Origin: an uncultured Alphaproteobacteria bacterium
GTDB taxonomy: Bacteria; Pseudomonadota; Alphaproteobacteria; Methylaequorales; Methylaequoraceae
DNA length: 64,000 nt
Direction of reading: 5' to 3'
NCBI GenBank assembly: GCA_902550225.1
Contig: CACCYL010000002.1
Span: 84,089 to 148,088 of the forward strand
The notes beneath the pieces were generated by a model. It worked only from the letters and a program-made list of their open reading frames with translations, ran no database searches and was not told where the DNA came from. The translations under genes and the position numbers were made by a program. Of the stretch, positions 12,064 to 61,790 are shown piece after piece (the stretch's first letter is position 1; each line of letters starts with the position of its first letter).

Positions 12064-13005
12064 CTAATCAATTGACTTTATTTTATAAGACTTCTTGCTC
12101 TGACTTTCATGATAAGTTCTGGATAGAATTTCTGAAATTATACCAAAAAACAGAGACATAATAGAAGTAATGAAAAAAAAGATTATTAAAATAGGAAGTG
12201 GAGTTAGAATAAAAGAAACCCCGTCAACATACTTCAATTTAAGTGTATATATCAATGTTAGACAAGAAAAAAAAAAAAAAATGAGGCCTACTCCCCCAAA
12301 AAAATAAATAGGCTTATTAATAAATCTTCTAAAAAAAACTAATAATATAACATCAAGTAAAACTTTAAAAATTCTACTCATCCCATATTTTGACTTTCCA
12401 AATCTTCTTGCAAAGTGATTAACTTTTACTTCGCCAATTTTTGCTCCCTCAAGTTTTGCATAAAATGGAATAAGTCTATGCATTTCTCCATAAAGTTTTA
12501 TATTTTTAATTATATCTCTTTTATACGCTTTTAATGTACAACCATAATCATGAAGTTTTAAATTCAAAATAAAAGATAATAATTTGTTAGCTATTTTACT
12601 GAAAAACACTCTAAAAAAACCGTCATTTCTTTTGTATCGCCAACCTGAGACAACATCCAAACCACCATTTTTAATCATATCTAAAAGTTTAGGAATGTCT
12701 GACGGGTCATTTTGTCCGTCAGCATCCATCATAACAATTATTTCACCTTTACAATTATCAATTCCAGCCATGATTGCAGCCGTTTGTCCTAAATTTCTGA
12801 CTAAACTAATAATTTTAAAATTTTTCTGATTAAGTTTTTTTATTATATTTAATGATTTATCAGTACTTCCATCATTCACAAAAATAAATTCAAACTTACT
12901 ATCGATAGATTTTGTACTTTTTATCAACTTTTTAATCAAAATTGCTAGACTATCTTCTTCATTAAAAAGAGGTATAATTATTGAAACTAAATTTGAATTT
13001 GCCAT
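12064..13005 (-). CDS. glycosyltransferase family 2 (polyprenyl-phosphate sugar transferase, GtrB/ArnC-like)
   Basis: The DGSTD and DADGQ motifs and a C-terminal pair of TM helices. It contains the T15 tract. Confidence 0.85.
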   Translation of the reverse strand: MANSNLVSIIIPLFNEEDSLAILIKKLIKSTKSIDSKFEFIFVNDGSTDKSLNIIKKLNQKNFKIISLVRNLGQTAAIMAGIDNCKGEIIVMMDADGQNDPSDIPKLLDMIKNGGLDVVSGWRYKRNDGFFRVFFSKIANKLLSFILNLKLHDYGCTLKAYKRDIIKNIKLYGEMHRLIPFYAKLEGAKIGEVKVNHFARRFGKSKYGMSRIFKVLLDVILLVFFRRFINKPIYFFGGVGLIFFFFSCLTLIYTLKLKYVDGVSFILTPLPILIIFFFITSIMSLFFGIISEILSRTYHESQSKKSYKIKSID

Positions 13006-13018
13006 TTTTAAAAGTTAG

Positions 13019-14491
13019 GTGTTTTTGATATTATATACAAAACCTCCAATGTTAATAAGTCTAATAAAAAATAAAGTTTTCTGGTTTGTAATATTAACAA
13101 TTAAGTTTATTTTTTTATTTTTATTTGGTGTCCAGGAAATGCCTGATTCGAGTGCCTATATAGAACTTGCCGAAGAAATTGAAAATAATATAAACTCAAT
13201 TTTTGATTTTCAAAATAATTCAAGAATGATTGGATACTCATTCGTTATCTATATTATAAAATTAGTTTTTGATAAATACTGGATTGTTTCAATTGGTTTT
13301 TTTCAAATATTTTTTTCTTTTTTTACATTACTATTTATTTTTGAAACACTTAAAAAGCTAAAAATTTCGACTGTTTCGATTAAAGTACTGATTATTCTGT
13401 TTTCATTCTCAACGATTAACAAACTAGAGTTACTAATTCTAACAGATAGTATTTATGGAAACTTATTGGTTTTAATTTTTTGTAACTTTTTAAGAATTTA
13501 TGTAACAAATAATAATCTTCAAATCATAAAAAACTCTTTAATGATTAGTTTACTTCTTGTAATTTGTTTTTTGATTAAAGATACTACTCTTGTTTTCCTC
13601 CCTTTGTTATTAGTATTCTTTACAATAATAATTGTAAAACTTTTTTTAAAAGAGATTACTTTTAAAAACTTTGTAATTAACTTTATGATTATTTTTCTTC
13701 CTATTTTAAGTATCTCAGAGACTATAAAATTTCAAAATTTAAAAAAAGAAAATTACAGATATATAACATTAGGTGGATCTACAATTTATCTGTACGCTAC
13801 AGTTAAACCATTTCTTGATAGGAATTTAAAAAACTTTAATAACAATAATGAAATTGACATTACTTATAAAAAATTTGTAACAAATAATGAGTTTTCAAAT
13901 ATATATAACATGATTTCAGAGCTTAAAAGTAAAGGTTTTTCAGATGTTGAAATATTAAAATATTCAAAAGAAAAATATTTTGAAATTATTCAGAATCCAA
14001 AAAATCTGATGACTATTATTATTGGAAATTTAAAACCAACTTTTGTTTGGGGAGTGTTTCAACCATTTTTAAGTTTAAGTCAACTATATTCAATAAAGAT
14101 AAGTGATAATTCATATTGGAGAACAAGACTAATTTTAAAAAAAATTTTGAGCGAAAAAACTCTTAACTTTGATCTAATTCTGTTTGTTTTATGCTTGTTT
14201 GAAATTTTAGTTGCTTCTTCAATGTTTATTTTATTTTTATTTACCGGTATGACGAATTTAAGAAAAATATTATCAATCAAAAAGAAAAAAAAGCAGAATT
14301 TCTCTTTTATAATTTTAATATCAATAATTTTCTATTTGTTGTTTTGTTTCCTTCATTTAATTGTTCATATTGAGCCAAGATATTTGGTAGGTACCAATTT
14401 TTTGTTTATTCTATCAATAATTTTAAATTTTGAAAAAGACATATCAGTATTTTATGATAAAATTAACAATTTTACAAAAAAAGTTCTATGA
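13019..14491 (+). CDS. polytopic membrane protein of the glycan locus (possible GT-C-type glycosyltransferase or polymerase)
   Basis: About 12 predicted TM helices and no soluble motifs. It overlaps the downstream methyltransferase gene by 4 nt. Confidence 0.5.
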   Translation: MFLILYTKPPMLISLIKNKVFWFVILTIKFIFLFLFGVQEMPDSSAYIELAEEIENNINSIFDFQNNSRMIGYSFVIYIIKLVFDKYWIVSIGFFQIFFSFFTLLFIFETLKKLKISTVSIKVLIILFSFSTINKLELLILTDSIYGNLLVLIFCNFLRIYVTNNNLQIIKNSLMISLLLVICFLIKDTTLVFLPLLLVFFTIIIVKLFLKEITFKNFVINFMIIFLPILSISETIKFQNLKKENYRYITLGGSTIYLYATVKPFLDRNLKNFNNNNEIDITYKKFVTNNEFSNIYNMISELKSKGFSDVEILKYSKEKYFEIIQNPKNLMTIIIGNLKPTFVWGVFQPFLSLSQLYSIKISDNSYWRTRLILKKILSEKTLNFDLILFVLCLFEILVASSMFILFLFTGMTNLRKILSIKKKKKQNFSFIILISIIFYLLFCFLHLIVHIEPRYLVGTNFLFILSIILNFEKDISVFYDKINNFTKKVL

Positions 14492-15213
14492 AAAAATCTC
14501 ATTTTTATTATGAATCAAGTATAGAAAAATACTTTTGGTGGTTTACAGTAAGAAGATTTTTCTTCTCAAGGGAAATAATAAAATTAATTGACAAAAAAAA
14601 AAGAATTTTAGACATTGGAAGTAGTAGTGGAACTAATCTTAGAATGTTAGAAGAAATTGGTTATCACAATTATACTGGTTTAGATCCAAATGATGTAGCA
14701 ATAAACCAATGCAAAAAAAAAGGTTTTACTAAGATTATTAAAGGCAATGCCTGCAACTTACCATTTAAAAGTAATAGTATTGATCTAGTAATTGCATCAG
14801 ATGTCTTAGAGCATATTGAAAATGATAAACTTGCATTATCTGAAATTTATAGAGTTATGAAAAAAAATTCTTATGCTATTATTACTGTTCCAGCCTTTAA
14901 TTTTCTATGGAGTTTACACGACGAAAATTCAATGCATAAAAGAAGATATATAAAAAAATCATTAAAAAATTTAATAAACCATAAAAGTTTTGTAATAAAA
15001 AAAATTTATTATTTTAATTTTTTGTTATTTATACCGATTTATTTTGCCAGAATTATATTTAAACTTTTAAAACTTAATATTAAAAATGAAAATAAGGTAA
15101 ATAGTAAATACTTAAATGTTTTATTAAAAATTATTTTTAAATTTGATGTTCTAATAGCTGAAAAAATAAATCCACCTTTTGGAGTCTCGATTTTCGCTTT
15201 GATTAAAAAATAA
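14488..15213 (+). CDS. class I SAM-dependent methyltransferase
   Basis: Motif I LDIGSSSGTN and the post-I acidic residue, with a C-terminal hydrophobic tail. Confidence 0.75.
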   Translation: MKKSHFYYESSIEKYFWWFTVRRFFFSREIIKLIDKKKRILDIGSSSGTNLRMLEEIGYHNYTGLDPNDVAINQCKKKGFTKIIKGNACNLPFKSNSIDLVIASDVLEHIENDKLALSEIYRVMKKNSYAIITVPAFNFLWSLHDENSMHKRRYIKKSLKNLINHKSFVIKKIYYFNFLLFIPIYFARIIFKLLKLNIKNENKVNSKYLNVLLKIIFKFDVLIAEKINPPFGVSIFALIKK

Positions 15214-15345
15214 AAAGTATCTTATTAAAATTAAATTTTTCAAGAAATAAACAACTAAATTTCAATATAATAAAAAGATAAACATAATGTTCATATTTGC
15301 GTAAAAGAAATAAAAAAGTTTACATTATGAAAGAAGTTAATCCTT

Positions 15346-16185
15346 TTATTGTCTATTGTAAAATAAACTTATTGCATGTTCTTTTATTAAATCTAAATCA
15401 ACAGCTGAACTACTAGCAATAAAGGCTCCATTCTTAAAATTTTTTTTCCCATATAAAAATTCACATATATCGTTATTTTCAAAACCTATAAGGTTAGCAT
15501 TAGCAGTTTGAAGTATTGAATGTCCTGCTGCAATATCCCATTCCATTGTTTTGCCAAACCTAATATATAGATTAGCTTTTGAATCAGCTATCATACAAAA
15601 TTTTAAAGAAGAACCTTTTTTAATTAAATCATTCTCGTAATTAATTTTAGATAAAAAATCCTCTGTCTTTTTATCTAAATGTGATCTGCTGCAAACAATT
15701 GATAATTCAGGTGATTTCGATGAATTAATTATTTGAATCTCATTTTTGATTGATCTGAATGAATTATATCCATTTGAATAATATTGTGTTTGTAGAACAG
15801 GTATATCAATAACGCCGATTTGTGGACGGTTTTGTTGAATAAGTGCAATATTTACTGTAAATTCGCCGTTCTTATTTAAAAACTCTTTGGTACCATCTAA
15901 AGGGTCGATTAATATAAATTCATCAAAATCTGCACCATCAGGAATTTGAGACTCTTCAGAAACCCTCGTGATTGATCTTAATTCTTTTTGAAGTATTTCA
16001 ATTATTATTCTATTGGACTCAATATCCGCTTTTGTTAAAGGTGTGTTGTCCTTTTTAATTTTCTTAGATAATTCATCGCATTCATATATTTCTAAAATTT
16101 TAGTAGCAGCTTTGCTAGAGGCAAATCTAAATATTTCTGTTATTTCTGCAAAGTTATGTTTCTTTATTTTATTTTTTTTTGACAT
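15346..16185 (-). CDS. cysQ: 3'(2'),5'-bisphosphate nucleotidase / inositol monophosphatase family
   Basis: IMPase motifs (IDPLDGTKEF, WDIAAG). Confidence 0.8.
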   Translation of the reverse strand: MSKKNKIKKHNFAEITEIFRFASSKAATKILEIYECDELSKKIKKDNTPLTKADIESNRIIIEILQKELRSITRVSEESQIPDGADFDEFILIDPLDGTKEFLNKNGEFTVNIALIQQNRPQIGVIDIPVLQTQYYSNGYNSFRSIKNEIQIINSSKSPELSIVCSRSHLDKKTEDFLSKINYENDLIKKGSSLKFCMIADSKANLYIRFGKTMEWDIAAGHSILQTANANLIGFENNDICEFLYGKKNFKNGAFIASSSAVDLDLIKEHAISLFYNRQ

Positions 16186-18008: not shown

Positions 18009-18456
18009 ACAATTTGTAAAATAGGCGTATAAAGGTTGTTTACATTATCTGCAATTAGCAAAAGTTGTGAGCTATAATCAGCTGTAAACTTTTCTTTTAT
18101 TTCAGGAAATTTTTTTAAAAAGAACCATAAGGTAAAAAAACATGACCAAAATATAATTAAAAATCGTCTGACAATTTTTGGTTTAACTTCAATTTTCATG
18201 GGACTTAATTACTCAGTTAGATGTTATATACATTATTTATGACTGATTATAAATAATTCAATAATTTCTTATGAGTTTTATTAAATTACTCTGTTTGAAA
18301 TAGAAACATAGTTGAAATCTTCTAAGTTTTGTAATATTTTTTGTTTAAAAATGAGTTATATTTTTATATCTGTTTTGATTTAAAAAATATAAGGTTTTAG
18401 AGTTTAGTAGTGAACATTAATTGAAAGCGCTATTATCTAAATCAAACTCGGATGAA

Positions 18457-18495
18457 GGAGAGATGGCAGAGTGGTCGAATGCACCGGTCTTGAAA
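18457..18495 (+). pseudogene. tRNA-Ser 5' half-copy (acceptor and D arm through the anticodon loop), remnant of the original target gene
   Basis: 37 of 39 positions are identical to the 5' half of the intact tRNA-Ser at 20751, and identity stops exactly at the anticodon loop. About 150 bp of upstream flank is also homologous. Confidence 0.75.
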
Positions 18496-18627
18496 GACAA
18501 CAGAGTCACTCCGAACACCCTTATTTGCTTGAGTTTTAAATAAAAATATAGTCGACAACATAGTCGACAACATATATTATCAAATATTCTGTACTAACCT
18601 TACACAGATTATTTAACTAATAGTATT

Positions 18628-19188
18628 TTGACTCGAACTTACATGGAAAACTCGCTCAAAAACATTATTAGAAACTATCAAAATTCTTTTAAAAGGAAAG
18701 TCTACACAAATGAAAATAACGATGTCGACTTATTAATGAACGTTTTTGGTATAACTCCCGATTTAAAGCGAGAAAATCGACAATATTGGGGACGAGAACT
18801 GGGAATGTGCTGGCAACTTTTAGTCATAGAATTATTCAGGAACACAAGAGATGATTTTGGTGCTGCCATAAAAATCGGTTCAGACGAACCCTGTGACCTA
18901 ACTGCCGGAACCTATGCGATTGACACAAAATATAGAATAGGGTCAGGAGACTCTGGTACGTTGAAAAAATTTAAATCTTACGGTCCTAAATTAAAAGAAA
19001 TGGGTTACTCACCAATATTTTTAATAGTTAGAGAAGATAACTTACCTGCGGCGATTACTGCTTGTCGAGTTGGTGGTTGGAGGGTATTAACCGGGAAAGA
19101 TACTTTTAAATTTATCAGAGAATTTACCAATTTTGATCTGGAGCAGTTTCTGCTCGACAATCGTGAAAATTTCAACGTTGAACGTTAA
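18628..19188 (+). CDS. type II restriction endonuclease candidate (PD-(D/E)xK fold)
   Basis: PCD-x9-DTK motif. The gene is convergent with the methyltransferase and overlaps it by 4 nt tail to tail. GC content is elevated. Confidence 0.55.
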   Translation: MTRTYMENSLKNIIRNYQNSFKRKVYTNENNDVDLLMNVFGITPDLKRENRQYWGRELGMCWQLLVIELFRNTRDDFGAAIKIGSDEPCDLTAGTYAIDTKYRIGSGDSGTLKKFKSYGPKLKEMGYSPIFLIVREDNLPAAITACRVGGWRVLTGKDTFKFIREFTNFDLEQFLLDNRENFNVER

Positions 19189-20078
19189 AAAAGAGAATAA
19201 TTGAGTCTTTCCCTGATTATCTCTACATACTTCTTTTCAATCTCAATTCCAAGATATCCTCTACCTAAATGTTTCGCAGCGAGCAGAGTTGTTCCAGAAC
19301 CAGCAAAAGGATCTATTACCACATTTTGAGTTCCTTCTGGAACAAGTATGCTTACTAATTTTTCCATTAATGATAGAGGTTTTACAGTACAATGCACATT
19401 GAACTCTTCCTTTTTGTCTCTTTGAATATTCTCTAAAATATTTGACTGAAATCCTCCATTCTTTAAAGTTGTATTGAAAACTCCAACTCCGTACTTCATT
19501 AATGTTTGTGAATAATTTTGTTCTAAAGGTTTTTGAACCAAGACAATGCCCTCCCATTCATTCCGAAAACAACTATGCCAACCCTGCCACCGATAATGTT
19601 CCTGGTAACCTTTACGTTTTAACTGAGATGCAGCGTTGTAACCCTTTGGGATGCCACTCGAACGTCGATACACAAGTATATCGCGAGCATAAAAACCTGC
19701 CTTTTCGAGGGCAACTTGGACATGCGCCAGTGTCCGGGTACTGTTAAATACAGCAACGGGACTTCCCGGTTTCAAGATTCTATAAAGTTCTTCTGACCAT
19801 TTCAGACACCACTCCTCATAATCAAGTATGTTTGACCGATTTTTATCATACCATCGCTTATTCCTTACCCCACCAGCAAGACCACTTCCGTAAGGTATGT
19901 TTTTCACTAATGTGTTACTTTTTTTGGACCTACTAATCCTTCGTTCAACTTCCTCAGTATCCCAATTTTTTCCGATAAATTCATAGTTATATGGAGGATC
20001 AGTGATACAAGCAGACACCGTATCAGGTTCAAATTGCTTCATGATCTTGATGCAATCTCCATTAAATATCTTATCCAA
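19185..20078 (-). CDS. DNA methyltransferase, beta-class N6A/N4C (DPPY ... FAGSGTT)
   Basis: Motif IV DPPY is N-terminal and motif I DPFAGSGTT is C-terminal. This is the ParB-less beta-class arrangement, as in M.RsrI and M.PvuII. GC content is markedly higher than in the surroundings. Confidence 0.85.
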   Translation of the reverse strand: MDKIFNGDCIKIMKQFEPDTVSACITDPPYNYEFIGKNWDTEEVERRISRSKKSNTLVKNIPYGSGLAGGVRNKRWYDKNRSNILDYEEWCLKWSEELYRILKPGSPVAVFNSTRTLAHVQVALEKAGFYARDILVYRRSSGIPKGYNAASQLKRKGYQEHYRWQGWHSCFRNEWEGIVLVQKPLEQNYSQTLMKYGVGVFNTTLKNGGFQSNILENIQRDKKEEFNVHCTVKPLSLMEKLVSILVPEGTQNVVIDPFAGSGTTLLAAKHLGRGYLGIEIEKKYVEIIRERLNYSLF

Positions 20079-20283
20079 ACCTAATCCTATGTATTTTTAA
20101 ATTAATTTGCTTGAACATATTTTTTCCTTCAACAGAATTGTAAACCCAATTTTAAACCAGATCTCTAAAATACAATTACCAAAATTTTATGAAAAAGTAT
20201 CCTACTTTCCATTTTTTAAAAATTGTAATCTCAAATAATCAAACTCACCATTTTTTTTTCTAAAACTTTTTAGAATTAACTTT

Positions 20284-20640
20284 TCAGTTCATTGAAGTCT
20301 TCAATTTTTTTGAAATTACACATAACCCCTTTGACTTATGAATAATTTTATAACTATCAAATCTTTTTAAACTCTTCTTGTATTTGTCTAATGTCATCCA
20401 GACCAATTTTGGAGTATACTGATTACCTGTAGGAGATTTTAAATTGGAACTATTAAGATAATCACTGATCTCAACTGATGACTTTCCCTCATCACTTAGG
20501 TACTTTATAAGTTTCAATCTATTTTCCCTTTTTGAATTTAAATTAAATATAGATAATTTTTGGGTTTCGATAACAACTCTGAATTTAATGAAAAGGGTGT
20601 TTAAACGCACCCTACCCCCCTTTTTCCTAATCACATTCAA
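20284..20640 (-). pseudogene. remnant of a large serine recombinase (recombinase domain only)
   Basis: YLSDEGKSSVEISDYLN...KSPTGNQYTPKLVWMTLDKYKK matches the HTH/recombinase-domain signature (G.S...IA..LN..G..TP.G..W....V..IL.N..Y). The N-terminal catalytic resolvase domain is missing and a G6 tract lies at the 5' end. Confidence 0.5.
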
Positions 20641-20750
20641 AATAGAATCATAGGTTGAAATCTAGGAAGATTTGTAATAGTTTCTTGATTTAAAATCTGT
20701 GATATTTTATGTCTTTTTTTTGATGTAAAATATGTGATTTTAGGGTCAAC

Positions 20751-20840
20751 GGAGAGTTGGCAGAGTGGTCGAATGCATCGGTCTTGAAAACCGACAAGGA
20801 TGCAAGTCCTTCTAGGGTTCGAATCCCTAACTCTCCGCCA
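20751..20840 (+). tRNA. tRNA-Ser (anticodon UGA)
   Basis: Cloverleaf folded by hand: acceptor GGAGAGT/ACTCTCC, anticodon stem TCGGT/ACCGA with loop CTTGAAA, a long variable arm, T arm TAGGG-TTCGAAT-CCCTA, discriminator G and an encoded CCA. Confidence 0.9.
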
Positions 20841-21172
20841 TTTTAGAGGTCATTAGTCGACAATATAGTCGACAACATTAAAAACCCTGTCCTCTGTAAC
20901 GCAGACTCACATTGACTTATAGAAGTTTTATTAGTTGAATAAACTAGTCTTGAAAACCGGCAAAGATGCAAGTCTTTCCAGGGTTCGAATCCCTGACTCT
21001 CCGCCACTTTTGGGGTCATTAGTCGACAACATAGTCGACAACACTAAAAACTCTATCCTCTGAAAGACAGACTCACATTGATTTGTAGAAAATATATTAG
21101 TTGAATAATCTGGTCTTGAAAACCGGCAAGGATGCAAGTCCTTCCAGGGTTCGAATCCCTGTCTCTCCGCCA
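20781..21172 (+). repeat. 166-bp tandem repeat (about 2.4 units). Each unit begins at the tRNA-Ser anticodon loop and contains the tRNA 3' half plus a GTCATTAGTCGACAAYATAGTCGACAACA spacer
   Basis: The period is exactly 166 bp (20781, 20947, 21113). The tRNA 3' halves recur at 20947-21006 and 21113-21172. Confidence 0.85.
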
Positions 21173-21343
21173 CTAACTCTAACCCTATTATTTCTGTGCT
21201 TCTACGGGCTTTAAATTGGCTTTTATACCTAATCATTATACCAAAACTAGATACCCCACCCCCATATATTTTTACCCGGGGGAGGAAAAATACCCCGGCT
21301 TGTTTTGATTGTTATAGTGTCTTAATAATTTTAAATTCAATAT

Positions 21344-24290: not shown

Positions 24291-26102
24291 ATGTCAAAAA
24301 ATATTAGGAATGTAGCTATTATTGCTCATGTAGACCACGGCAAAACCACATTAATTGATTCAATACTTAAGCAAATTGGAATGTTTAGATCCAATGAAGA
24401 GATTGGGGAAAGAATAATGGATAGTGGCGATTTAGAAAAAGAACGTGGTATTACGATTTTGGCAAAGCCTACATCAATTAAGTGGAATGGAGTAAAAATA
24501 AATATAATAGATACACCAGGACATGCAGATTTTGGTGGAGAGGTTGAAAGGATTTTATGTATGGCTGATGGAGTAATTTTATTAACAGATGCCTCAGAAG
24601 GACCAATGCCTCAAACAAAGTTTGTTTTAGGTAAAGCATTATCGCAGGGTTTAAAGCCAATTGTAATCATTAATAAAGTTGATAAAAAAGATAGTCGTGC
24701 AGATGTCGTTTTAGACGAAGTGTTTGATCTTTTTGTTACTCTAAATGCAAATGAGGATCAGCTTGATTTTCCAATACTATACGCCTCTGGAAAAAATGGT
24801 TGGTGTGTGAATGATCTCAAAGATAAAAAAGAAAATTTGCACCCTCTTCTCAATTTAATAATAGAGCATGTGCCTCCTCCAAAAATTAATTCAGAAACAT
24901 CTTTTTCATTTCTAGCAACCCTTCTCTCTTACGATACTTATGTTGGTAGATGTTTAATAGGAAAAGTTGAAAGTGGGAATGCCGAAGTTAATAAAATTGT
25001 TAAGGCAATAAATCTAAATCAAAAACTTGTAGAAAAAGGCAAATTAACAAAATTATTTTCTTTTGAGGGAAATAAAAGAATTCCTGTTAATGAAATTGTT
25101 GCAGGTGATATAGCTTGTATTGCTGGTTTAACTAATGCTTCAGTTTCAGATACAATTTGTGATAATTTAGTCTCTAAACCCATAAAATCGTCTCCGATAG
25201 ATCCCCCAACTATGTCAATAACCATTACTGTTAATAACTCACCTTTTGCTGGGCAGGAGGGCAAAAAAGTGACTTCTAATAATATTAGAGAAAGGCTTTT
25301 GGCAGAAGCTGAAACAAATGTGGCAATTACTTTTAGTGAAAATGAAAATAAAGATGCTTTTGAAATTGGCGGTAGAGGCGAACTACAATTGGGAGTTTTG
25401 ATCGAAACTATGCGAAGAGAAGGTTTTGAATTATCAGTTTCTAGACCAAAAGTATTATTTAAAACAGAAAAAAATATCAAATTAGAACCAGTTGAAGAGG
25501 TTGTAATTGATGTTGATGAAAGTTTTTCAAGCACAGTGATTAGCTCAATGAATAATAGAAAATCAGAAATGATCGATATGAAAACTTCCTCAGCAAAGAC
25601 TCGTATTATCTTTAAGTCACCTTCAAGGGGACTAATAGGTTATCAAAGTCAATTCTTAACAGAAACAAAAGGAACAGGTATTCTGAATAGAATATTTCAT
25701 GCTTATGAACCATTTAAAGGAGAGTTTAAAGAAAAAAGAAATGGTTCCTTAATATCAACTGAGACAGGTCAAGCAGTTGCATATGCAATCTTTAATCTGC
25801 AAGATAGAGGAGTAATGTACATCAAACCGCAAACCAAAGTATACACTGGAATGGTAGTTGGTGAGCATAATAAAGAAAATGATCTTGAAATTAATGTTTT
25901 AAAAGGAAAACAACTTACTAATGTTAGAGCATCAGGTTCAGATAAAGCTGTTACTTTGGTACCACCAGTTAAGATGACATTAGAGCAGATGATTTCTTTT
26001 ATAAGAGATGATGAATTACTTGAGGTAACACCTATGAACCTAAGACTTAGAAAAAAATATCTTGATTCCAATGAAAGAAAGCGTGAAAAAAAATTAAATT
26101 AA
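24291..26102 (+). CDS. typA: translational GTPase TypA/BipA
   Basis: AHVDHGKTT G1 motif, DTPGH G3 motif and NKVD G4 motif, with EF-G-like domain organisation. Confidence 0.92.
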   Translation: MSKNIRNVAIIAHVDHGKTTLIDSILKQIGMFRSNEEIGERIMDSGDLEKERGITILAKPTSIKWNGVKINIIDTPGHADFGGEVERILCMADGVILLTDASEGPMPQTKFVLGKALSQGLKPIVIINKVDKKDSRADVVLDEVFDLFVTLNANEDQLDFPILYASGKNGWCVNDLKDKKENLHPLLNLIIEHVPPPKINSETSFSFLATLLSYDTYVGRCLIGKVESGNAEVNKIVKAINLNQKLVEKGKLTKLFSFEGNKRIPVNEIVAGDIACIAGLTNASVSDTICDNLVSKPIKSSPIDPPTMSITITVNNSPFAGQEGKKVTSNNIRERLLAEAETNVAITFSENENKDAFEIGGRGELQLGVLIETMRREGFELSVSRPKVLFKTEKNIKLEPVEEVVIDVDESFSSTVISSMNNRKSEMIDMKTSSAKTRIIFKSPSRGLIGYQSQFLTETKGTGILNRIFHAYEPFKGEFKEKRNGSLISTETGQAVAYAIFNLQDRGVMYIKPQTKVYTGMVVGEHNKENDLEINVLKGKQLTNVRASGSDKAVTLVPPVKMTLEQMISFIRDDELLEVTPMNLRLRKKYLDSNERKREKKLN

Positions 26103-26322
26103 TAAATATTTTACCAAAATAGCATAACCATCTCTATGTCATAAATAATAAAACTAAGTGGTTGTTCAGTAAAACCTATACTTTTTCCTATTACTCTGCC
26201 TGTATAAGAAAGCTTCGGATTCTTGGCTCCTTTGGATCAAAATTTGGTAGTCTTTACTTCTAATTTTATCCAAAAAAAATATCGACTTAGTATAGTTTAA
26301 TGCATCGATTTGCTCTGATTTT

Positions 26323-27357
26323 TTACACACGCCAAACTGTAACACCACCTTGTCTATCCAATCCAGCAAGTGCTTTATCATCTTGACGCCAATATAATTT
26401 TGAAACAGAATCACTTACACTAGTTTCACTTAATCCACTTTCTTCATTTTCAGATTTTAAGTCCCAAAGTACTACAACACCATCCCTTGATCCTGAAGCT
26501 AAATTCATACCACGATTTGAAAAAGCTAGTGATGTAATTGGTTTAGTGTGAAGTTTTAACGATAAAGGAGATGTACCCTCAGGCCCATTGCCTTTGAAAC
26601 TCCAAACTGTTACCTCTTCACTTCCCCCTGTGGCCAAGTAGCTTCCAGTTTCGTCAAAAGACAAAGCTGAGGGTTTTAGTGGATATCCAGACATCATTGA
26701 ATCTTGCTCTGTTGATCTGCGCCAAAAATGAATTGTATTATCTTGGCTTCCACATACGACTATGTCGCTGTTTGGGCTTAATACCATTGAAACTAAAGAC
26801 CCTTTCCATTCTAATTTCTGCTTTATTTTTCCTGAAATACCATCAAAAAAGGAAACACGCCCATAGCATGTTGTAGCTAGTTCTTTTTCGATGGACCAAG
26901 CTAAATTACTTACAGTACTATTATGACTGTCAGATTGCCACATTTCATTACCCTCTTTGGTGTATACATAAATGGTTCGAGAGCAAGAAAACGCCAGCAT
27001 TTCTCCATCTTGTGACCACGATAAATTTTCTATCCAACCATCACCCAAATCAATGACTTTTTCCTTTTTTTTTTGTTGAGCATTCCAAATAATAACCTTT
27101 CCATCCTGACCTCCTGTTGCGAACCTATCAATTAATGGATGGATTGCTGTTGAAAGAATACCACCTTCATGAACTTGTCCTTGAGACCATTTCATTTTAC
27201 CAGATGTACCATCAAAGACATATATCCCTCCAGCAGCATCACAAATTATGAGAGCCTCACCATTAAAGTTCCAACCCCCAGAAATAGCGTAATCATTTAC
27301 ATAGGCTTTCCAACCACTTCTGAGAATCTTTTGGGGTTGTGTTTCCATTATACTCAT
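26323..27357 (-). CDS. WD40-repeat beta-propeller protein
   Basis: Seven WD-like blades ending in W/D dipeptides (WNAQ, WRRS, WDLK, WRV). There is a 4-nt ATGA overlap with the upstream COG0523 gene. Confidence 0.75.
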   Translation of the reverse strand: MSIMETQPQKILRSGWKAYVNDYAISGGWNFNGEALIICDAAGGIYVFDGTSGKMKWSQGQVHEGGILSTAIHPLIDRFATGGQDGKVIIWNAQQKKKEKVIDLGDGWIENLSWSQDGEMLAFSCSRTIYVYTKEGNEMWQSDSHNSTVSNLAWSIEKELATTCYGRVSFFDGISGKIKQKLEWKGSLVSMVLSPNSDIVVCGSQDNTIHFWRRSTEQDSMMSGYPLKPSALSFDETGSYLATGGSEEVTVWSFKGNGPEGTSPLSLKLHTKPITSLAFSNRGMNLASGSRDGVVVLWDLKSENEESGLSETSVSDSVSKLYWRQDDKALAGLDRQGGVTVWRV

Positions 27358-55136: not shown

Positions 55137-56632
55137 GTAAAACAATGGCTTATGTAAAACTTAAAAATCTTTTTGAAGAACAAAGTCTACTAAATGATAT
55201 TAATGGTATCTTAAATTGGGATATGGCCACATATATGCCTCAAAATTCAAGAAATCAGCGTGTTAGACAAATACAAAAAATTCTTGATTACAAAAAAAGC
55301 ATTTTTGACCAAATTAAAAAAAATGAATTATTTAAAAAGATCAATGATTCCAGCCTGAGTCCGGAAGATAAATTAAACCTTAATTTAATGAGAGATAAGT
55401 TTGAATACTTTGATATCGTTCCATATGAATATATAAAAAAAAAAACTTCACTTGCAATTTTATGTGAAGGGGAATGGAGAAAAGCTAAAATAAAATCAAA
55501 TTTCAATTTAGTTAAAAAATCATTTAAAAAGCTTGTTGATGTTATAAAGATTGAGTCTGAAATACTATCTCAAAAAAAGGATAAAACAAAATATGATTGT
55601 TTATTATCTAAATACGACAGATCATTGACCTCTTCACGCGTTACAAAAATTTTTTCTAGGATAGAATTGTTTTTTAAAAAGAATATCCCGTTAATATTAG
55701 AAAAACAAAGAAGCTATAAATCAATTTCTTTTACCGAAAATCTCTCAGAATCAGAACAATTTGAACTATCAAAAGGTTTTATGAAAAAACTTGGCTTTGA
55801 TTTTTCTCGAGGTAGGATTGACAAAAGTTCACATCCTTTTTGCGGTGGGAGTTCTGAAGATATTAGAATTACTACAAGATATAATGATTCAGACTCATTC
55901 TCATGCTTTGATGCTCTAATGCACGAGACAGGTCACGCTATTTATGAACAAGGACTACCTAAAAAATGGTTGCATCAGCCATTAGGTTCATCTGGAGGAA
56001 TGTCGCTACATGAAAGCCAATCACTTTTTATTGAAATGCAAATTATTAAATCACTTCAAGTAAGTCATTTAATCGAAAAAATAATCAAGAATAATTTTGG
56101 GAAGAAAAATCCTACTTGGAATCAAGAAAATATTTATAGAAACAGAAAGCAGGTAAAAAAGAACTACATAAGAGTAGATGCAGACGAAGTCCATTATCCT
56201 CTTCATATAATGCATAGGTTCAAAATTGAAAAAAAGATTATTGAAGAAGACTTTGATGTAATGTTTCTTCCGGAACTGTGGAATCAAGAGTTTTATAATA
56301 TTTTCAATATAAAAGTTGATAGTGACCAAAACGGTTGTTTGCAGGATATTCATTGGTTTGGTGGAGATTTTGGTTATTTTCCTACTTATAGTATTGGGGC
56401 ATTTATTGCAGCTCAGATTTTTGATTCTATAAAAAAACAGAATCCTAAATTAGAAATCGATTTAAAAAATGGAAATTTTTTACCCATAATCAATTGGTTG
56501 AAAAAAAATATTCATAGCCACGGTAATTATTATAAAATTGACGAACTTTTATTAAATGTGACAGGTGAAAAGCTGAATTTAAAATACTTCGAAAAACACA
56601 TTACAGACAGATATTTAAAAGAAAAAAAATAA
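55133..56632 (+). CDS. carboxypeptidase Taq (M32) family metallopeptidase
   Basis: HETGHAIYEQG (HExxH) and the HESQS motif characteristic of M32. Confidence 0.85.
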   Translation: MSKTMAYVKLKNLFEEQSLLNDINGILNWDMATYMPQNSRNQRVRQIQKILDYKKSIFDQIKKNELFKKINDSSLSPEDKLNLNLMRDKFEYFDIVPYEYIKKKTSLAILCEGEWRKAKIKSNFNLVKKSFKKLVDVIKIESEILSQKKDKTKYDCLLSKYDRSLTSSRVTKIFSRIELFFKKNIPLILEKQRSYKSISFTENLSESEQFELSKGFMKKLGFDFSRGRIDKSSHPFCGGSSEDIRITTRYNDSDSFSCFDALMHETGHAIYEQGLPKKWLHQPLGSSGGMSLHESQSLFIEMQIIKSLQVSHLIEKIIKNNFGKKNPTWNQENIYRNRKQVKKNYIRVDADEVHYPLHIMHRFKIEKKIIEEDFDVMFLPELWNQEFYNIFNIKVDSDQNGCLQDIHWFGGDFGYFPTYSIGAFIAAQIFDSIKKQNPKLEIDLKNGNFLPIINWLKKNIHSHGNYYKIDELLLNVTGEKLNLKYFEKHITDRYLKEKK

Positions 56633-56708
56633 CGAAAATTCTCCATTGTAATTTAAGAAATTGAAAAATAATTTTGTTTTTTAATTAAATAGTGTAAGCT
56701 AATCTTAT

Positions 56709-58844
56709 GTGGAGATTTATATGGATGATTATTCCATAAAAAAACATTTTGGTGGTTGCCCTCACGACTGCCCCGATACGTGCGCAATGATTTATGAAGT
56801 TGCGGGCAACAAACTTCTTAGCGTTAGAGGAAACCCTGATCACCCTATGACTGACGGCGTACTTTGTGTCAAGCTCAAAGACTACGAAAAAAGACACTAC
56901 CATCCTGATCGTTTATTATATCCTCATAAACGTGTTGGAAAAAAGGGAAAGAAAGAATTTGAAAGAATTTCTTGGGATGAAGCACTAGAAACAATAACCT
57001 TAAAATGGAAGTCTCTAATTAATGAATATGGGCCTGAATCAATCATTCCGTATAGTTATTTGGGAAATCAAGGTTTAGTTCATGGTTTAAATGGAGGTGA
57101 TTCTTTCTTTAATGCTCTTGGCGCGACTGTTTGTGAGAGAACTTTTTGTGGGGAAGGTTCATGTACAGCTTGGTTAACCACGATAGGCCCAACAGCTGGC
57201 TTAGATCCGGAAAGTTACATCCACAGTAAATACATTGTTATTTGGGCTTGTAACAGTGTAAGTACCAATCTTCATCATTGGACAATCATTCAAGAAGCTA
57301 AAAAAAGAGGAGCCAAAGTTGTAGTAATTGATTCATATAAATCTAGAACTGCTAAACAAGCTGATTGGCATATCGAACCTATCCCTGGTTCAGACGGAGC
57401 TTTGGCAGTAGCCATGATAAATCATATTATTTATAACGATCTAACAGATATGGATTACATAAATAATCACACTAATGGATTTGAAGAGTTAAAAGAGCAT
57501 GTTAAAGATAAAGATCCTAAATGGGCGTCTAAAATAACTGGAATTAGTGAAGAAGAAATTAAAAAATTGGCTCAAGAAATTGCTACAGTTCAACCAGTTG
57601 GAATAAGAATTGGAGTTGCACTTGAGAGACATTATGGAGGTGGGCAGACGATTAGAGCTGTTACCTGCATACCTGCATTAACTGGTGCATGGAAACATGT
57701 TGGTGGAGGAATCACTCAATTTCCAGTTTGGGAACATCCGTACAAATTTGATGTTATATGCAGACCGGATTTGATACCTGAAGGTACAAGAGTTGTAAAC
57801 GCTCTTCAGATTGGAAGAGCCTTACTAGGGGAAAATATAGATAAGGACAAACCAATTATGTCCATGATGTGCTGGAACGCTAATCCTGTTACTCAAGCAG
57901 CCGAAACAGAGAAAATAATTAAAGGTTTAAAGAGAGAAGATTTATTCTTAGTTTCTGCTGAACATTTTATTTCTGACACAGCATCTTACGCAGATATTCT
58001 TCTACCCGCCACAATGGGTGCAGAACATGAAGATATGATATTATCTTGGGGTCACTTATACCTAACATACAATGAGAAATGTGTTGATGCTCCAGGAGAA
58101 GCTTTACCAAATTATGAAATATTCAGGAGGTTAGCAAAAAAGATGGATTTAAAGCAAGATCAATTCAGTTGGAGTGATGAAAAATGTTTAGAAAACTATG
58201 TAGATTGGTCAGCACCAGCATGTGAGGGAATTACTCTTGAAAAATTGAAGGAAAAAGGGTTTGCAAGATTAAATGTTGGTTGCAAAGATACACGAGCACC
58301 CCACAAAGATGGTAAGTTCCCTACAGAATCAGGTAAATGTGAGTTTATTCTAAAAGATGTGAAAAATTTTGTTGCCGGTCCGTTCAGACAAATGTACGAG
58401 GATTATCAACCAGGTCAAGACCTCCCTCCTCTTCCGGATTATGTTCCTCAACTTGAGTCAAAACAAACTAACCCGCAACTTGCCAAAAAATATCCTTTAA
58501 ACGTAATAACTCCAAAAAGTCATGCGTTTTTAAATTCGTGTTATGCAAACATGACGGATAAGCAGAGGGTTCAAGGAGACCAATTTGTTCTTATAAGCGA
58601 AATTGATTCAAAACAAAGAAATATTAAAGATGGTGATAATGTCAAAGTATTTAATGACAGAGGTTCCTATAAAGGTGTTGCTAAAATAACATCTGATGTT
58701 TCGTCAGGTATTGTCGTTTCAACGCTCGGATATTGGAGACAACTCAACGATGGAACAGTTAACAGTATAAGCTCAGCTAATTTAGCAGATATGGGAAATG
58801 CTCCAACTTTCTCAGATAATCTAGTTGAAGTAATAAAAATATAA
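56709..58844 (+). CDS. molybdopterin (bis-MGD) oxidoreductase, cytoplasmic, substrate unknown
   Basis: N-terminal Fe-S Cys cluster (CPHDCPDTC ... C) and MopB-family length and domains. No Tat signal. Confidence 0.75.
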   Translation: MEIYMDDYSIKKHFGGCPHDCPDTCAMIYEVAGNKLLSVRGNPDHPMTDGVLCVKLKDYEKRHYHPDRLLYPHKRVGKKGKKEFERISWDEALETITLKWKSLINEYGPESIIPYSYLGNQGLVHGLNGGDSFFNALGATVCERTFCGEGSCTAWLTTIGPTAGLDPESYIHSKYIVIWACNSVSTNLHHWTIIQEAKKRGAKVVVIDSYKSRTAKQADWHIEPIPGSDGALAVAMINHIIYNDLTDMDYINNHTNGFEELKEHVKDKDPKWASKITGISEEEIKKLAQEIATVQPVGIRIGVALERHYGGGQTIRAVTCIPALTGAWKHVGGGITQFPVWEHPYKFDVICRPDLIPEGTRVVNALQIGRALLGENIDKDKPIMSMMCWNANPVTQAAETEKIIKGLKREDLFLVSAEHFISDTASYADILLPATMGAEHEDMILSWGHLYLTYNEKCVDAPGEALPNYEIFRRLAKKMDLKQDQFSWSDEKCLENYVDWSAPACEGITLEKLKEKGFARLNVGCKDTRAPHKDGKFPTESGKCEFILKDVKNFVAGPFRQMYEDYQPGQDLPPLPDYVPQLESKQTNPQLAKKYPLNVITPKSHAFLNSCYANMTDKQRVQGDQFVLISEIDSKQRNIKDGDNVKVFNDRGSYKGVAKITSDVSSGIVVSTLGYWRQLNDGTVNSISSANLADMGNAPTFSDNLVEVIKI

Positions 58845-59278: not shown

Positions 59279-59593
59279 ATGGAAACTACAACTTACATTG
59301 CAATGAATAGATTTAAAATCGTCAGAGGCAAAGAGGACGTCTTTGAAAAAATCTGGAAAGAGAGAGATTCAAAACTAGGTGAAGTCAAAGGATTCATAAA
59401 TTTTAATTTAATAAAAGGAAAAGAAAACGATGAATTCACAATTTACGCTTCACACAGTACATGGTCATCTGAAATAGACTTTATCAATTGGACTAAATCA
59501 GAATCATTTCGAGAGGCCCACAAAAACGCCGGACAAAGTAAAGAAATATATATTGGGCACCCTGAGTTTGAAGGATTTAAAGTAGTTTTGTAA
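59279..59593 (+). CDS. ABM (antibiotic biosynthesis monooxygenase/Dabb) domain protein
   Basis: About 100 aa with a ferredoxin-like ABM fold pattern (IAMNRFKI..., FEG). Confidence 0.55.
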   Translation: METTTYIAMNRFKIVRGKEDVFEKIWKERDSKLGEVKGFINFNLIKGKENDEFTIYASHSTWSSEIDFINWTKSESFREAHKNAGQSKEIYIGHPEFEGFKVVL

Positions 59594-59630
59594 AGAGCGT
59601 TTACAATTGCAAACACTCATGTATTACAAA

Positions 59631-61790
<2,160 letters not shown>

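What the first reader, a model, noticed from the sequence alone, without database searches (positions are those of the whole stretch)
18628..20078. Higher-GC type II restriction-modification pair embedded in the tRNA-Ser islet
The islet holds a convergent pair of genes overlapping tail to tail. One is a beta-class DNA methyltransferase with DPPY near the N-terminus and FAGSGTT near the C-terminus. The other is a 186-aa protein with a PD-x9-DxK-like nuclease motif (CDL...AIDTKYR). The GC content is visibly higher than the roughly 30% of the surrounding chromosome, for example CGCGAGCATAAAAACCTGCC and GGACATGCGCCAGTGTCCGGG. Defence systems are rare in SAR11-type streamlined genomes, so an acquired R-M module is notable. 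The recognition site is unknown. The flanking arm-like repeats contain GTCGAC palindromes.
Basis: partly seen in the sequence, partly recalled or inferred. Interest (0 to 1): 0.7.

Follow-up and report, generated by a model that had tools for sequence, protein, structure and literature searches.

The report
Acquired restriction-modification cassette beside tRNA-Ser
A complete two-gene restriction-modification (anti-phage) module of a widespread but uncharacterised family was recently acquired by a low-GC marine alphaproteobacterium and sits inside the decayed remains of a mobile element at a tRNA-Ser gene; it is a real but ordinary kind of feature.

Summary
ORFs 18628-19188 (+) and 19185-20078 (-) converge and overlap by 4 bp. 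The 297-aa protein is a beta-class N6/N4 DNA methyltransferase (Pfam PF01555, E 3e-35; DPPY at 27-30, FAGSGTT at 258-264).

In 83 of 87 loci with a relative of this protein, an orthologous methyltransferase lies immediately downstream. In 46 loci a C-protein-like regulator precedes the nuclease gene; the window copy lacks one.

GC3 is 0.32 and 0.31, against 0.20 +/- 0.03 for 45 other ORFs. The same 2.0-kb cassette occurs at 96% identity in an unrelated genomic context. The R-M core occurs at 88% identity in a 45-50% GC genome.

The surrounding islet is an integrase-less remnant of an element that recombines in the tRNA-Ser anticodon loop. The GTCGACAAC repeats lie next to a tyrosine integrase gene in related contigs.

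The recognition site is unknown and SAR11 membership is unverified. Published surveys already report R-M as the commonest SAR11 defence. Verdict: new member of a known kind, modest interest.

The parts
18296..18406 (+). Diverged copy (about 75-80% identity) of the roughly 110-nt region that lies upstream of the functional tRNA-Ser. Probably the original host tRNA-Ser upstream region.
   Evidence: (repeat family D7).
18457..18495 (+). Orphan 5' half of tRNA-Ser (positions 1-39), ending in the shared core GTCTTGAAA (18487-18495, the anticodon loop). Not called as a tRNA. Left attachment junction (attL-like).
   Evidence: (D4, D5; 89-95% identical to the real tRNA). Neither ARAGORN nor Rfam calls it.
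18496..18595 (+). Element arm (P'-like) with two GTCGACAAC repeats spaced 12 nt apart (18549-18573). It is 93% identical to the segment that lies directly upstream of the tyrosine integrase gene in L091.
18581..20597 (.). 2.0-kb mobile cassette (R, M and most of orf118). It is shared at about 96% nucleotide identity with contigs L093-L096, which have different flanks.
18628..19188 (+). R gene: predicted PD-(D/E)XK type II restriction endonuclease. 186 aa from the TTG start; 181 aa from the ATG at 18643.
18889..18930 (+). Catalytic motif P-C-D-x8-D-T-K of R.
   Evidence: Invariant in 25 and in 10 aligned family members. It lies on adjacent strands of the predicted core.
19185..20078 (-). M gene: beta-class N6/N4 DNA methyltransferase, 297 aa. 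Motif IV (DPPY) is at 19989-20000 and motif I (FAGSGTT) at 19287-19307.
20284..20640 (-). orf118, a small ORF upstream of M on the same strand. It has a weak match to the Recombinase-domain family (E 0.014). Residues 16-118 are shared with L093, and its first 15 codons lie beyond the cassette junction. Function unknown.
20581..20750 (+). Region upstream of the tRNA, shared at 96.5% identity with L089 and L091 (90.6% with L090). Sequence to the left of 20581 is unrelated in those contigs.
20751..20840 (+). Functional-looking tRNA-Ser (anticodon UGA).
   Evidence: ARAGORN and Rfam at 60 bits.
20854..20878 (+). Pair of GTCGACAAY repeats, 13 nt after the tRNA 3' end.
20946..21006 (+). First displaced 3' part of tRNA-Ser (from the GTCTTGAAA core to CCA), 90% identical to the real tRNA. 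attR-like remnant.
   Evidence: (D1, D2).
21020..21044 (+). Second downstream pair of GTCGACAAC repeats.
21112..21172 (+). Second displaced 3' part of tRNA-Ser (93% identical to the real tRNA). ARAGORN miscalls 21085-21172 as a tRNA. Right end of the islet.

Best explanation
The two genes form a complete, horizontally acquired Type II restriction-modification module.

M is a beta-class methyltransferase. Its DPPY motif and nearest characterised relatives suggest it makes N6-methyladenine. It would protect an unknown, probably short palindromic, site on the host chromosome.

R is a small PD-(D/E)XK endonuclease, presumably a homodimer. It would cut the same site on unmethylated incoming DNA such as phage DNA.

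The genes converge and share their stop codons. Unlike about half of the family, this copy has no C-protein regulator.

The module travels as a discrete cassette of 1.5-2.0 kb. Here it occupies the body of an integrase-less remnant of an integrative element that recombined in the anticodon loop of tRNA-Ser(UGA). That element appears to have brought its own intact tRNA-Ser copy.

Shown: gene integrity, the family assignment of M, the conserved R-M linkage, the compositional anomaly, sharing of the cassette between different contexts, and the att-like architecture. Predicted from a model: the nuclease fold of R. Inferred: the enzymatic activities, shared specificity, m6A chemistry, present-day activity, and the order of integration events.
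For: M:
- PF01555, E 2.9e-35.
- PADLOC MTase_II, E 1e-49.
- Nearest solved relatives are DpnA, CcrM and M.MboIIA.

R:
- 1650 homologues that stay 57-69% identical across many phyla. Several are named 'restriction endonuclease' by NCBI.
- Invariant E52, P83-x-D85 and D94-x-K96.
- AlphaFold2 model with pLDDT 84 and an alpha-beta-beta-beta-alpha-beta core.

Linkage:
- 83 of 87 loci have an orthologous M immediately downstream of R: 75 convergent and 8 co-directional.
- 46 loci have a 68-aa HTH controller directly upstream of R.
- Relatives lie on plasmids and next to integrases.

Acquisition:
- GC3 z-scores of 4.5 and 4.0, and the worst codon fit in the window.
- 96% nucleotide identity to L093-96 over 18581-20597, with unrelated flanks.
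- 88.5% identity to L002 over 18627-20118 only, in a genome whose core genes are 45-50% GC.

Selection:
- dN/dS for M is 0.04-0.09. For R it is 0.17 against L002.

Islet:
-.
Against: - No biochemical or methylome evidence exists, and no characterised prototype was identified, so the specificity is unknown.
- R has no significant Pfam or NCBIfam match. The PADLOC REase_II match is only E 0.0067, and relatives score 12-16 bits against RE_ApaLI where the cutoff is 25.
- Between the window and L093, R shows dN/dS of 0.64 (20 nonsynonymous against 8 synonymous changes). This is compatible with relaxed constraint on R in one of the two lineages.
- No C protein is present, and no promoter stands out statistically.
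- The element model rests on three related metagenome contigs from one locus. No element with split att sites plus an integrase was observed.
Confidence: 0.8

Rival explanations
1. The module is a decaying remnant. M is active and now works as a solitary methyltransferase, while R has lost or is losing activity. This is the usual fate of R-M systems after acquisition.
For: R against L093 has dN/dS of 0.64, while M has 0.04. There is no C-protein regulator. The surrounding element has lost its integrase and most of its body.
Against: R is full length. It keeps all 67 positions that are invariant in the 10-sequence alignment, and all 57 invariant in the 25-sequence alignment, including the catalytic residues. 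The window-L093 differences fall at variable positions. The one change at a near-invariant position (G79D) is in L093, not in the window. Counts are small (28 changes).
Confidence: 0.13
2. The 186-aa protein is a PD-(D/E)XK nuclease with another role, such as repair, methyl-directed cleavage or a toxin. It is only coincidentally or functionally paired with a methyltransferase, so the pair is not a classical Type II R-M system.
For: No curated restriction-enzyme model recognises the protein. The PD-(D/E)XK fold is shared with Vsr, NucS, XPF and CRISPR ancillary nucleases, all of which appear among the fold hits.
Against: The best and longest fold matches are orthodox Type II enzymes; EcoO109I aligns over 170 of 181 residues. 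The tight, nearly universal adjacency to one orthologous methyltransferase (83 of 87 loci), together with a C-protein-like gene directly upstream of R in 46 loci, is the signature of Type II R-M operons.
Confidence: 0.04
3. The raised GC is not a sign of transfer. It only reflects amino-acid composition or strong conservation, as in the other 36-41% GC stretches of the window.
For: Other windows reach 0.38-0.41 GC: 25951-27351, 56601-57401 and 59451-60551. Conserved host genes reach 0.38 overall GC.
Against: Those host genes have normal GC3 (0.19-0.25), whereas R and M have 0.32 and 0.31. Homology to other genomes stops exactly at the cassette ends.
Confidence: 0.03

Closest known systems
Orthodox Type IIP restriction-modification systems with a beta-class methyltransferase and a small PD-(D/E)XK endonuclease, often C-protein controlled (for example PvuII, BamHI, Esp1396I, EcoO109I). 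This comparison comes from general knowledge of these systems.
   Same: Two separate adjacent genes. A beta-class methyltransferase with DPPY and FxGxG motifs. A small nuclease with an E...PD...DxK core. A convergent gene arrangement. A C-protein gene upstream of R in about half of the family. Carriage on plasmids and islands.
   Different: The R sequence family is not represented in Pfam or NCBIfam and only marginally in PADLOC. No characterised prototype or recognition site could be assigned here. The window copy lacks the C gene.
EcoO109I, and the PspGI / EcoRII-C / Ecl18kI / NgoMIV group of restriction endonuclease folds
   Different: Sequence identity is only 7-14%. R is much smaller (181 aa against 260-290 aa). 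R keeps a canonical D-x-K, whereas from my own knowledge, not tested here, the CCGG-family members use S/T-x-K plus a distal Glu. No shared specificity can be inferred.
ApaLI-like restriction endonucleases (Pfam PF09499)
   Same: The C-terminal catalytic half of several family members aligns weakly with the C-terminal half of the model.
   Different: Scores are 12-16 bits against a cutoff of 25. The window protein has no hit at all. It is not a member by Pfam's criterion.
tRNA-targeting integrative elements and their non-autonomous derivatives. Arrays of partial tRNA copies next to genomic islands, and integrase-less 'cis-mobilisable' elements, are known from general knowledge.
   Same: The islet has att-like direct repeats derived from a tRNA. 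It has paired short repeats next to a tyrosine integrase gene in relatives. It shows tandem remnants of successive integrations, and cargo that includes a defence module.
   Different: The crossover appears to be in the anticodon loop, within a shared core of only 9 bp. The 5' half of the tRNA is duplicated. The element seems to carry a whole replacement tRNA-Ser rather than only its 3' end. No integrase is left in the window.

Membership tests
Type II restriction-modification system | A DNA methyltransferase with a SAM-binding motif I and a catalytic motif IV | tested here: met
   PF01555, E 2.9e-35. DPPY at residues 27-30 and FAGSGTT at 258-264.
Type II restriction-modification system | A separate endonuclease gene adjacent to the methyltransferase, with the linkage conserved across genomes | tested here: met
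   The genes overlap by 4 bp in the window. An orthologous M lies immediately downstream of R in 83 of 87 loci.
Type II restriction-modification system | An endonuclease with a recognised nuclease catalytic fold and an intact active site | tested here: met
Type II restriction-modification system | R cleaves at or near a defined site, and M methylates the same site and so blocks cleavage | not testable with these tools
   No REBASE, methylome or biochemical data were available. A palindrome-avoidance analysis was uninformative.
Beta-class (N6/N4) DNA methyltransferases | Motif order IV (D/SPPY), then the target-recognition region, then motif I (FxGxG) | tested here: met
   DPPY is N-terminal and FAGSGTT is C-terminal. 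The protein aligns to beta-class enzymes M.MboIIA, M.RsrI and CcrM.
N6-adenine (as opposed to N4-cytosine) methyltransferase | The product is m6A | tested here: inconclusive
   The DPPY motif and the best hits (DpnA, CcrM; NCBIfam adenine-specific models) favour m6A. However, N4-cytosine enzymes (8s9m) also match at 1.5e-13.
ApaLI-like restriction endonuclease (PF09499) | A score above Pfam's gathering threshold of 25 bits | tested here: not met
   No hit for the window protein at E up to 1. Relatives score 12.4-16.5 bits.
C-protein-controlled R-M operon | A small HTH controller gene upstream of R | tested here: not met
   Present in 46 related loci but absent from the window, L093-96 and L002 (tblastn). 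Only about 60 bp separate the element arm from the R start.
Integrative element at a tRNA gene (autonomous) | An integrase gene lying between att-like direct repeats | tested here: not met
   No integrase relative is present anywhere in the window (tblastn, best E 2.7). orf118 has only a weak Recombinase-domain hit (E 0.014). The att-like repeats themselves are present.
SAR11 (Pelagibacterales) genome | Housekeeping proteins that are closest to named SAR11 genomes | tested here: inconclusive
   The best named TypA hits are 'Alphaproteobacteria bacterium' MAGs (90% and 79%). No Pelagibacter-named entry appears among the 120 best, which reach down to 74% identity. The 29.9% GC fits SAR11.

The most novel reading that the evidence does not exclude
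The islet may be a non-autonomous, cis-mobilisable mini-element. In this reading, an intact attL (tRNA 5' half + GTCTTGAAA + arm with GTCGACAAC repeats) and an attR (arm + GTCTTGAAA + tRNA 3' half) flank only an R-M cassette and an element-borne replacement tRNA-Ser. A tyrosine integrase supplied in trans by full-length relatives (the L091 type) could then excise and move it. That would make it a dedicated shuttle spreading a defence and addiction module among streamlined marine bacteria. The element family itself would be unusual in splitting the tRNA in the anticodon loop and compensating with its own tRNA gene.
Probability: 0.2. Interest if true: 0.5.

Novelty: new member of a known kind. 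Interest (0 to 1): 0.3.

Why it matters
This is a concrete, well-bounded case of a defence module entering a streamlined, roughly 30% GC marine genome from a higher-GC donor pool. Near-identical copies sit in unrelated contexts, so it documents cassette-level exchange of R-M systems in the ocean.

The endonuclease belongs to a very widespread and unusually conserved family: 57-69% identity across Bacillota, Cyanobacteria, Chloroflexota, Pseudomonadota, Acidobacteriota, Planctomycetota and others. This family is absent from Pfam and NCBIfam and is barely detected by PADLOC. Automated defence surveys would therefore probably score such loci as orphan methyltransferases and undercount R-M systems, including in SAR11-like genomes.

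Beyond that, it is an ordinary Type II system. Published surveys already list R-M as the commonest SAR11 defence.

Tried and rejected
- Assigning a prototype or specificity: sequence searches of R against PDB, both single sequence and profile, found nothing.
- Pfam, NCBIfam and PHROGs gave no family for R. The PADLOC hit was marginal.
- Distant family members do not bridge to RE_ApaLI.
- tblastn against plasmids gave only generically named hits. tblastn against phages gave none.
- The afdb50 fold library was unavailable.
- Literature searches for a characterised enzyme of this size found nothing.
- Pooled palindrome observed/expected ratios over 75 host loci (830 kb) gave the lowest values for ACTAGT, CTCGAG, GGTACC and TTCGAA. 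Without a control set this says nothing specific. TTAA and GTCGAC are not singled out.
- My recollection that R.MseI is of similar size is an untested lead only.
- Looking for an empty site or alternative cargo in close relatives: exact-protein look-ups of the flanking genes failed. The 99%-TypA contig L098 starts 150 nt before the SSF gene, the first gene of at least 150 aa to the right of the islet.
- Identifying the integrative element: the integrase has no relatives in IMG/VR or INPHARED. The repeat motif is absent from IMG/VR. The tRNA region matches phages only as generic tRNA-Ser.
- orf118 is unrelated to the small Recombinase-domain ORFs next to the L002 copy.
- Rejected: that the second ARAGORN call (21085-21172) is a real tRNA.
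- Rejected: that the GC excess reflects protein composition only.

Full report
OBSERVATION. R is at 18628-19188 (+): 186 aa from a TTG start, or 181 aa from the ATG at 18643, which is the form present in databases as P0001. M is at 19185-20078 (-), 297 aa. Their stop codons share the tetranucleotide TTAA at 19185-19188, giving a 4-bp tail-to-tail overlap. M has DPPY at residues 27-30 and FAGSGTT at 258-264, which is the beta-class motif order. R has P-C-D-x8-D-T-K.

The region is 37.4% GC against 29.9% for the window. Overall GC is not decisive, because several conserved host genes also reach 0.38. GC3 is decisive. It is 0.32 (R) and 0.31 (M) against 0.203 +/- 0.026 for 45 other ORFs of at least 150 aa (z = 4.5 and 4.0). 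These two genes also fit the window's codon usage worst of all 47 ORFs.

THE METHYLTRANSFERASE. M matches Pfam N6_N4_Mtase (PF01555) at E 2.9e-35 and PADLOC MTase_II at 1e-49. Its nearest solved relatives are DpnA, CcrM, an N4-cytosine enzyme, M.MboIIA and M.RsrI. The DPPY motif and the adenine-specific best hits favour m6A. N4-cytosine enzymes also match, so the chemistry remains an inference.

THE 186-AA PROTEIN. No model in Pfam, NCBIfam or PHROGs matches it. PADLOC REase_II gives only E 0.0067. No PDB sequence matches it, either alone or as a profile.

It nevertheless has 1650 homologues that stay 57-69% identical across very distant phyla. Several of these NCBI names 'restriction endonuclease'. 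A few relatives touch RE_ApaLI at 12-16 bits, below the 25-bit cutoff.

LINKAGE. In 83 of 87 fetched loci that encode a relative of R, an orthologue of this M (56-68% identity) lies immediately downstream. It is convergent in 75 loci and co-directional in 8. One of the four exceptions ends at the contig edge.

On a Shewanella plasmid the pair is preceded by a 68-aa HTH regulator ending 4 bp before R. Relatives of that regulator sit in the same position in 46 loci. This is the arrangement of C-protein-controlled Type II systems. The window copy, its closest relatives, and the Bacillus pumilus and Vibrio copies lack this gene.

Relatives lie next to integrases, serine recombinases or plasmid replication genes.

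ACQUISITION. The closest relatives define the mobile unit. Contigs L093-L096 (Tara and other marine metagenomes) are about 96% identical to the window from 18581 to about 20597. They have unrelated flanks: a molybdopterin-domain oxidoreductase gene and ThiS on the left, with GC3 of 0.27-0.39.

L002, from assembly GCA_902515065.1, is 88.5% identical over 18627-20118 only. That span is just R, M and 40 bp. There it sits inside a different island of a genome whose core genes are 45-50% GC.

No species representative among 185,579 genomes carries a copy more than 66% identical.

M is under strong purifying selection (dN/dS 0.04-0.09). R gives 0.17 against L002 but 0.64 against L093, from 20 nonsynonymous and 8 synonymous changes. 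All those changes fall at variable positions, and every family-invariant residue is intact in the window copy. I therefore rate 'intact and probably active' well above 'decaying R', but I keep the latter as the main rival.

THE ISLET. Only one tRNA-Ser(UGA), at 20751-20840, satisfies Rfam. Downstream lie two 166-nt units. Each contains a pair of GTCGACAAY repeats and a copy of the tRNA from GTCTTGAAA (the anticodon loop) to CCA, at 20946-21006 and 21112-21172. ARAGORN's second 'tRNA' is the last of these.

Upstream of R lies the 5' half of a tRNA-Ser (18457-18495), ending in the same GTCTTGAAA. It is followed by unrelated sequence that carries another GTCGACAAC pair (18549-18573). It is preceded by a diverged copy of the tRNA's upstream region. 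All six GTCGACAAY occurrences in the window are these three pairs, against 0.28 expected by chance.

A metagenome scan for the repeat found contigs L089, L090 and L091. Read in full in L091, their order is: resolvase, small ORFs, an SprT-like ORF, the same upstream region and tRNA-Ser (96.5% identical in L089 and L091, 90.6% in L090), a repeat pair, an arm ending in GTCTTGAAA, the same 'unrelated' segment with its repeat pair (93%), and then immediately the ATG of a 420-aa tyrosine integrase (Phage_int_SAM_5 above the cutoff; Phage_integrase E 5e-5).

That is an uninterrupted attP-like site (arm, 9-bp core, arm) next to an integrase gene, with a complete tRNA-Ser beside it. A crossover at GTCTTGAAA between such an element and a host tRNA-Ser would give exactly what the window shows. 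On the left: host 5' half + core + integrase-proximal arm. On the right: element-borne tRNA + arm + core + host 3' half. The second downstream unit is what a second round of integration would leave.

In the window the whole element body, integrase included, is missing (tblastn). The R-M cassette fills the space exactly, from the position of the integrase start to about 15 nt inside the region shared with the element upstream of the tRNA. Only microhomology is present at the junctions (ATATT on the left, ATGAAAAGG on the right).

This part is inference from three contigs of one locus. I could not find the element in viral collections, nor an empty-site allele.

CONTEXT AND NOVELTY. The SAR11 label is unverified. 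TypA is 90% identical to an 'Alphaproteobacteria bacterium' MAG, and no Pelagibacter-named protein appears among the 120 best hits, which reach down to 74% identity. The 29.9% GC and the adjacent low-GC glycosyltransferase block are compatible with a SAR11-like organism.

A survey of 321 SAR11 genomes found 51 putative defence systems in 46 genomes, with R-M the most common (bioRxiv 10.64898/2025.12.11.693642). In 135 complete Pelagibacter genomes, R-M genes make up 5.8% of strain-specific genes and are enriched there (bioRxiv 10.64898/2026.04.03.716430). A marine metaepigenome study found most methyltransferases to be orphan and predicted only four complete Type II pairs (PMC8919816).

The finding is therefore a new member of a known kind. 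Two points are mildly interesting. First, the endonuclease family is widespread and highly conserved yet missing from the standard profile libraries, so automated defence annotation would probably miss it. Second, the cassette sits in an integrase-less, att-flanked remnant that could in principle be mobilised in trans.

VERDICT. Observation confirmed and interpretation supported. The recognition site and present activity are untested. Interest 0.3.

Noticed in passing
window 21085-21172: ARAGORN calls a second tRNA-Ser(tga) here. Rfam does not, and the 5' part is not tRNA-like. It is a displaced 3' copy (21112-21172) of the real tRNA.
   Followed up: yes
L097 2785-2991, and 46 of the loci L008-L087 just upstream of R: A 68-aa HTH regulator resembling R-M controller (C) proteins directly precedes R in about half of the family. 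It is absent from the window, L093-96, L002, and the Bacillus pumilus and Vibrio copies.
   Followed up: partly
window 18643-19185 against L093 1584-2126: R has dN/dS of 0.64 (20 nonsynonymous and 8 synonymous differences), while the adjacent M has 0.04. This may indicate relaxed constraint on R in one lineage. All the changes are at family-variable positions.
   Followed up: partly
L091 1-6216 (also L089 and L090): A small element-like contig. In order: resolvase, SprT-like ORF, full tRNA-Ser, an attP-like site with two GTCGACAAC pairs around GTCTTGAAA, a tyrosine integrase, and small ORFs. One of these ORFs shows a weak match to a rolling-circle Rep family. No relatives were found in IMG/VR or INPHARED.
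   Followed up: partly
window 20284-20640 (-): orf118 lies upstream of M on the same strand and has a weak Recombinase-domain match (E 0.014). It is conserved at 92% in L093, but its first 15 codons lie outside the shared cassette. It may be a truncated or chimeric gene, or a small DNA-binding protein.
   Followed up: partly
window 12800-15400: A block of very low GC (0.17-0.255 in 400-nt steps, mostly 0.20-0.23). It covers the first 200 nt of a family-2 glycosyltransferase gene (12064-13005), an unassigned 490-aa ORF and a SAM methyltransferase. An asparagine-synthase-like gene lies just upstream. It looks like a variable surface-polysaccharide region of the kind described for SAR11 HVR2.
   Followed up: no
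window 26323-27357 (-): A 344-aa WD40 beta-propeller protein, 38.5% GC, lies next to a CobW-family GTPase. In contig L098, whose TypA is 99% identical to the window's, CobW follows TypA directly on the same strand and no WD40 gene is called.
   Followed up: no
L098 1-150: The contig carrying a 99%-identical TypA starts 150 nt before the sodium:solute symporter gene, the first gene of at least 150 aa to the right of the islet. This would be consistent with assemblies breaking near this variable locus.
   Followed up: no
L002 14721-16606, and 10019-10759: The island that carries the 88%-identical R-M copy also holds a 770-aa N6_Mtase-domain gene, possibly part of another R-M system. It also holds two small ORFs with weak large-serine-recombinase 'Recombinase' domain matches. 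Together these suggest a defence island in a 45-50% GC marine bacterium.
   Followed up: no
loci L036, L062, L066, L070, L072, L076, L083, L086: In eight loci the orthologous methyltransferase follows R on the same strand instead of converging on it. In seven of these the M identity to the window is 56-59%, in L066 60.5%. This is a distinct sub-lineage of the module with a different gene order.
   Followed up: no
window 21262-21300: A GC-rich stretch just after the last tRNA fragment: CCCCACCCCCATATATTTTTACCCGGGGGAGGAAAAATACCCCGG. It contains a CCGGGG...CCCCGG inverted repeat and may be a terminator or a protein-binding site.
   Followed up: no
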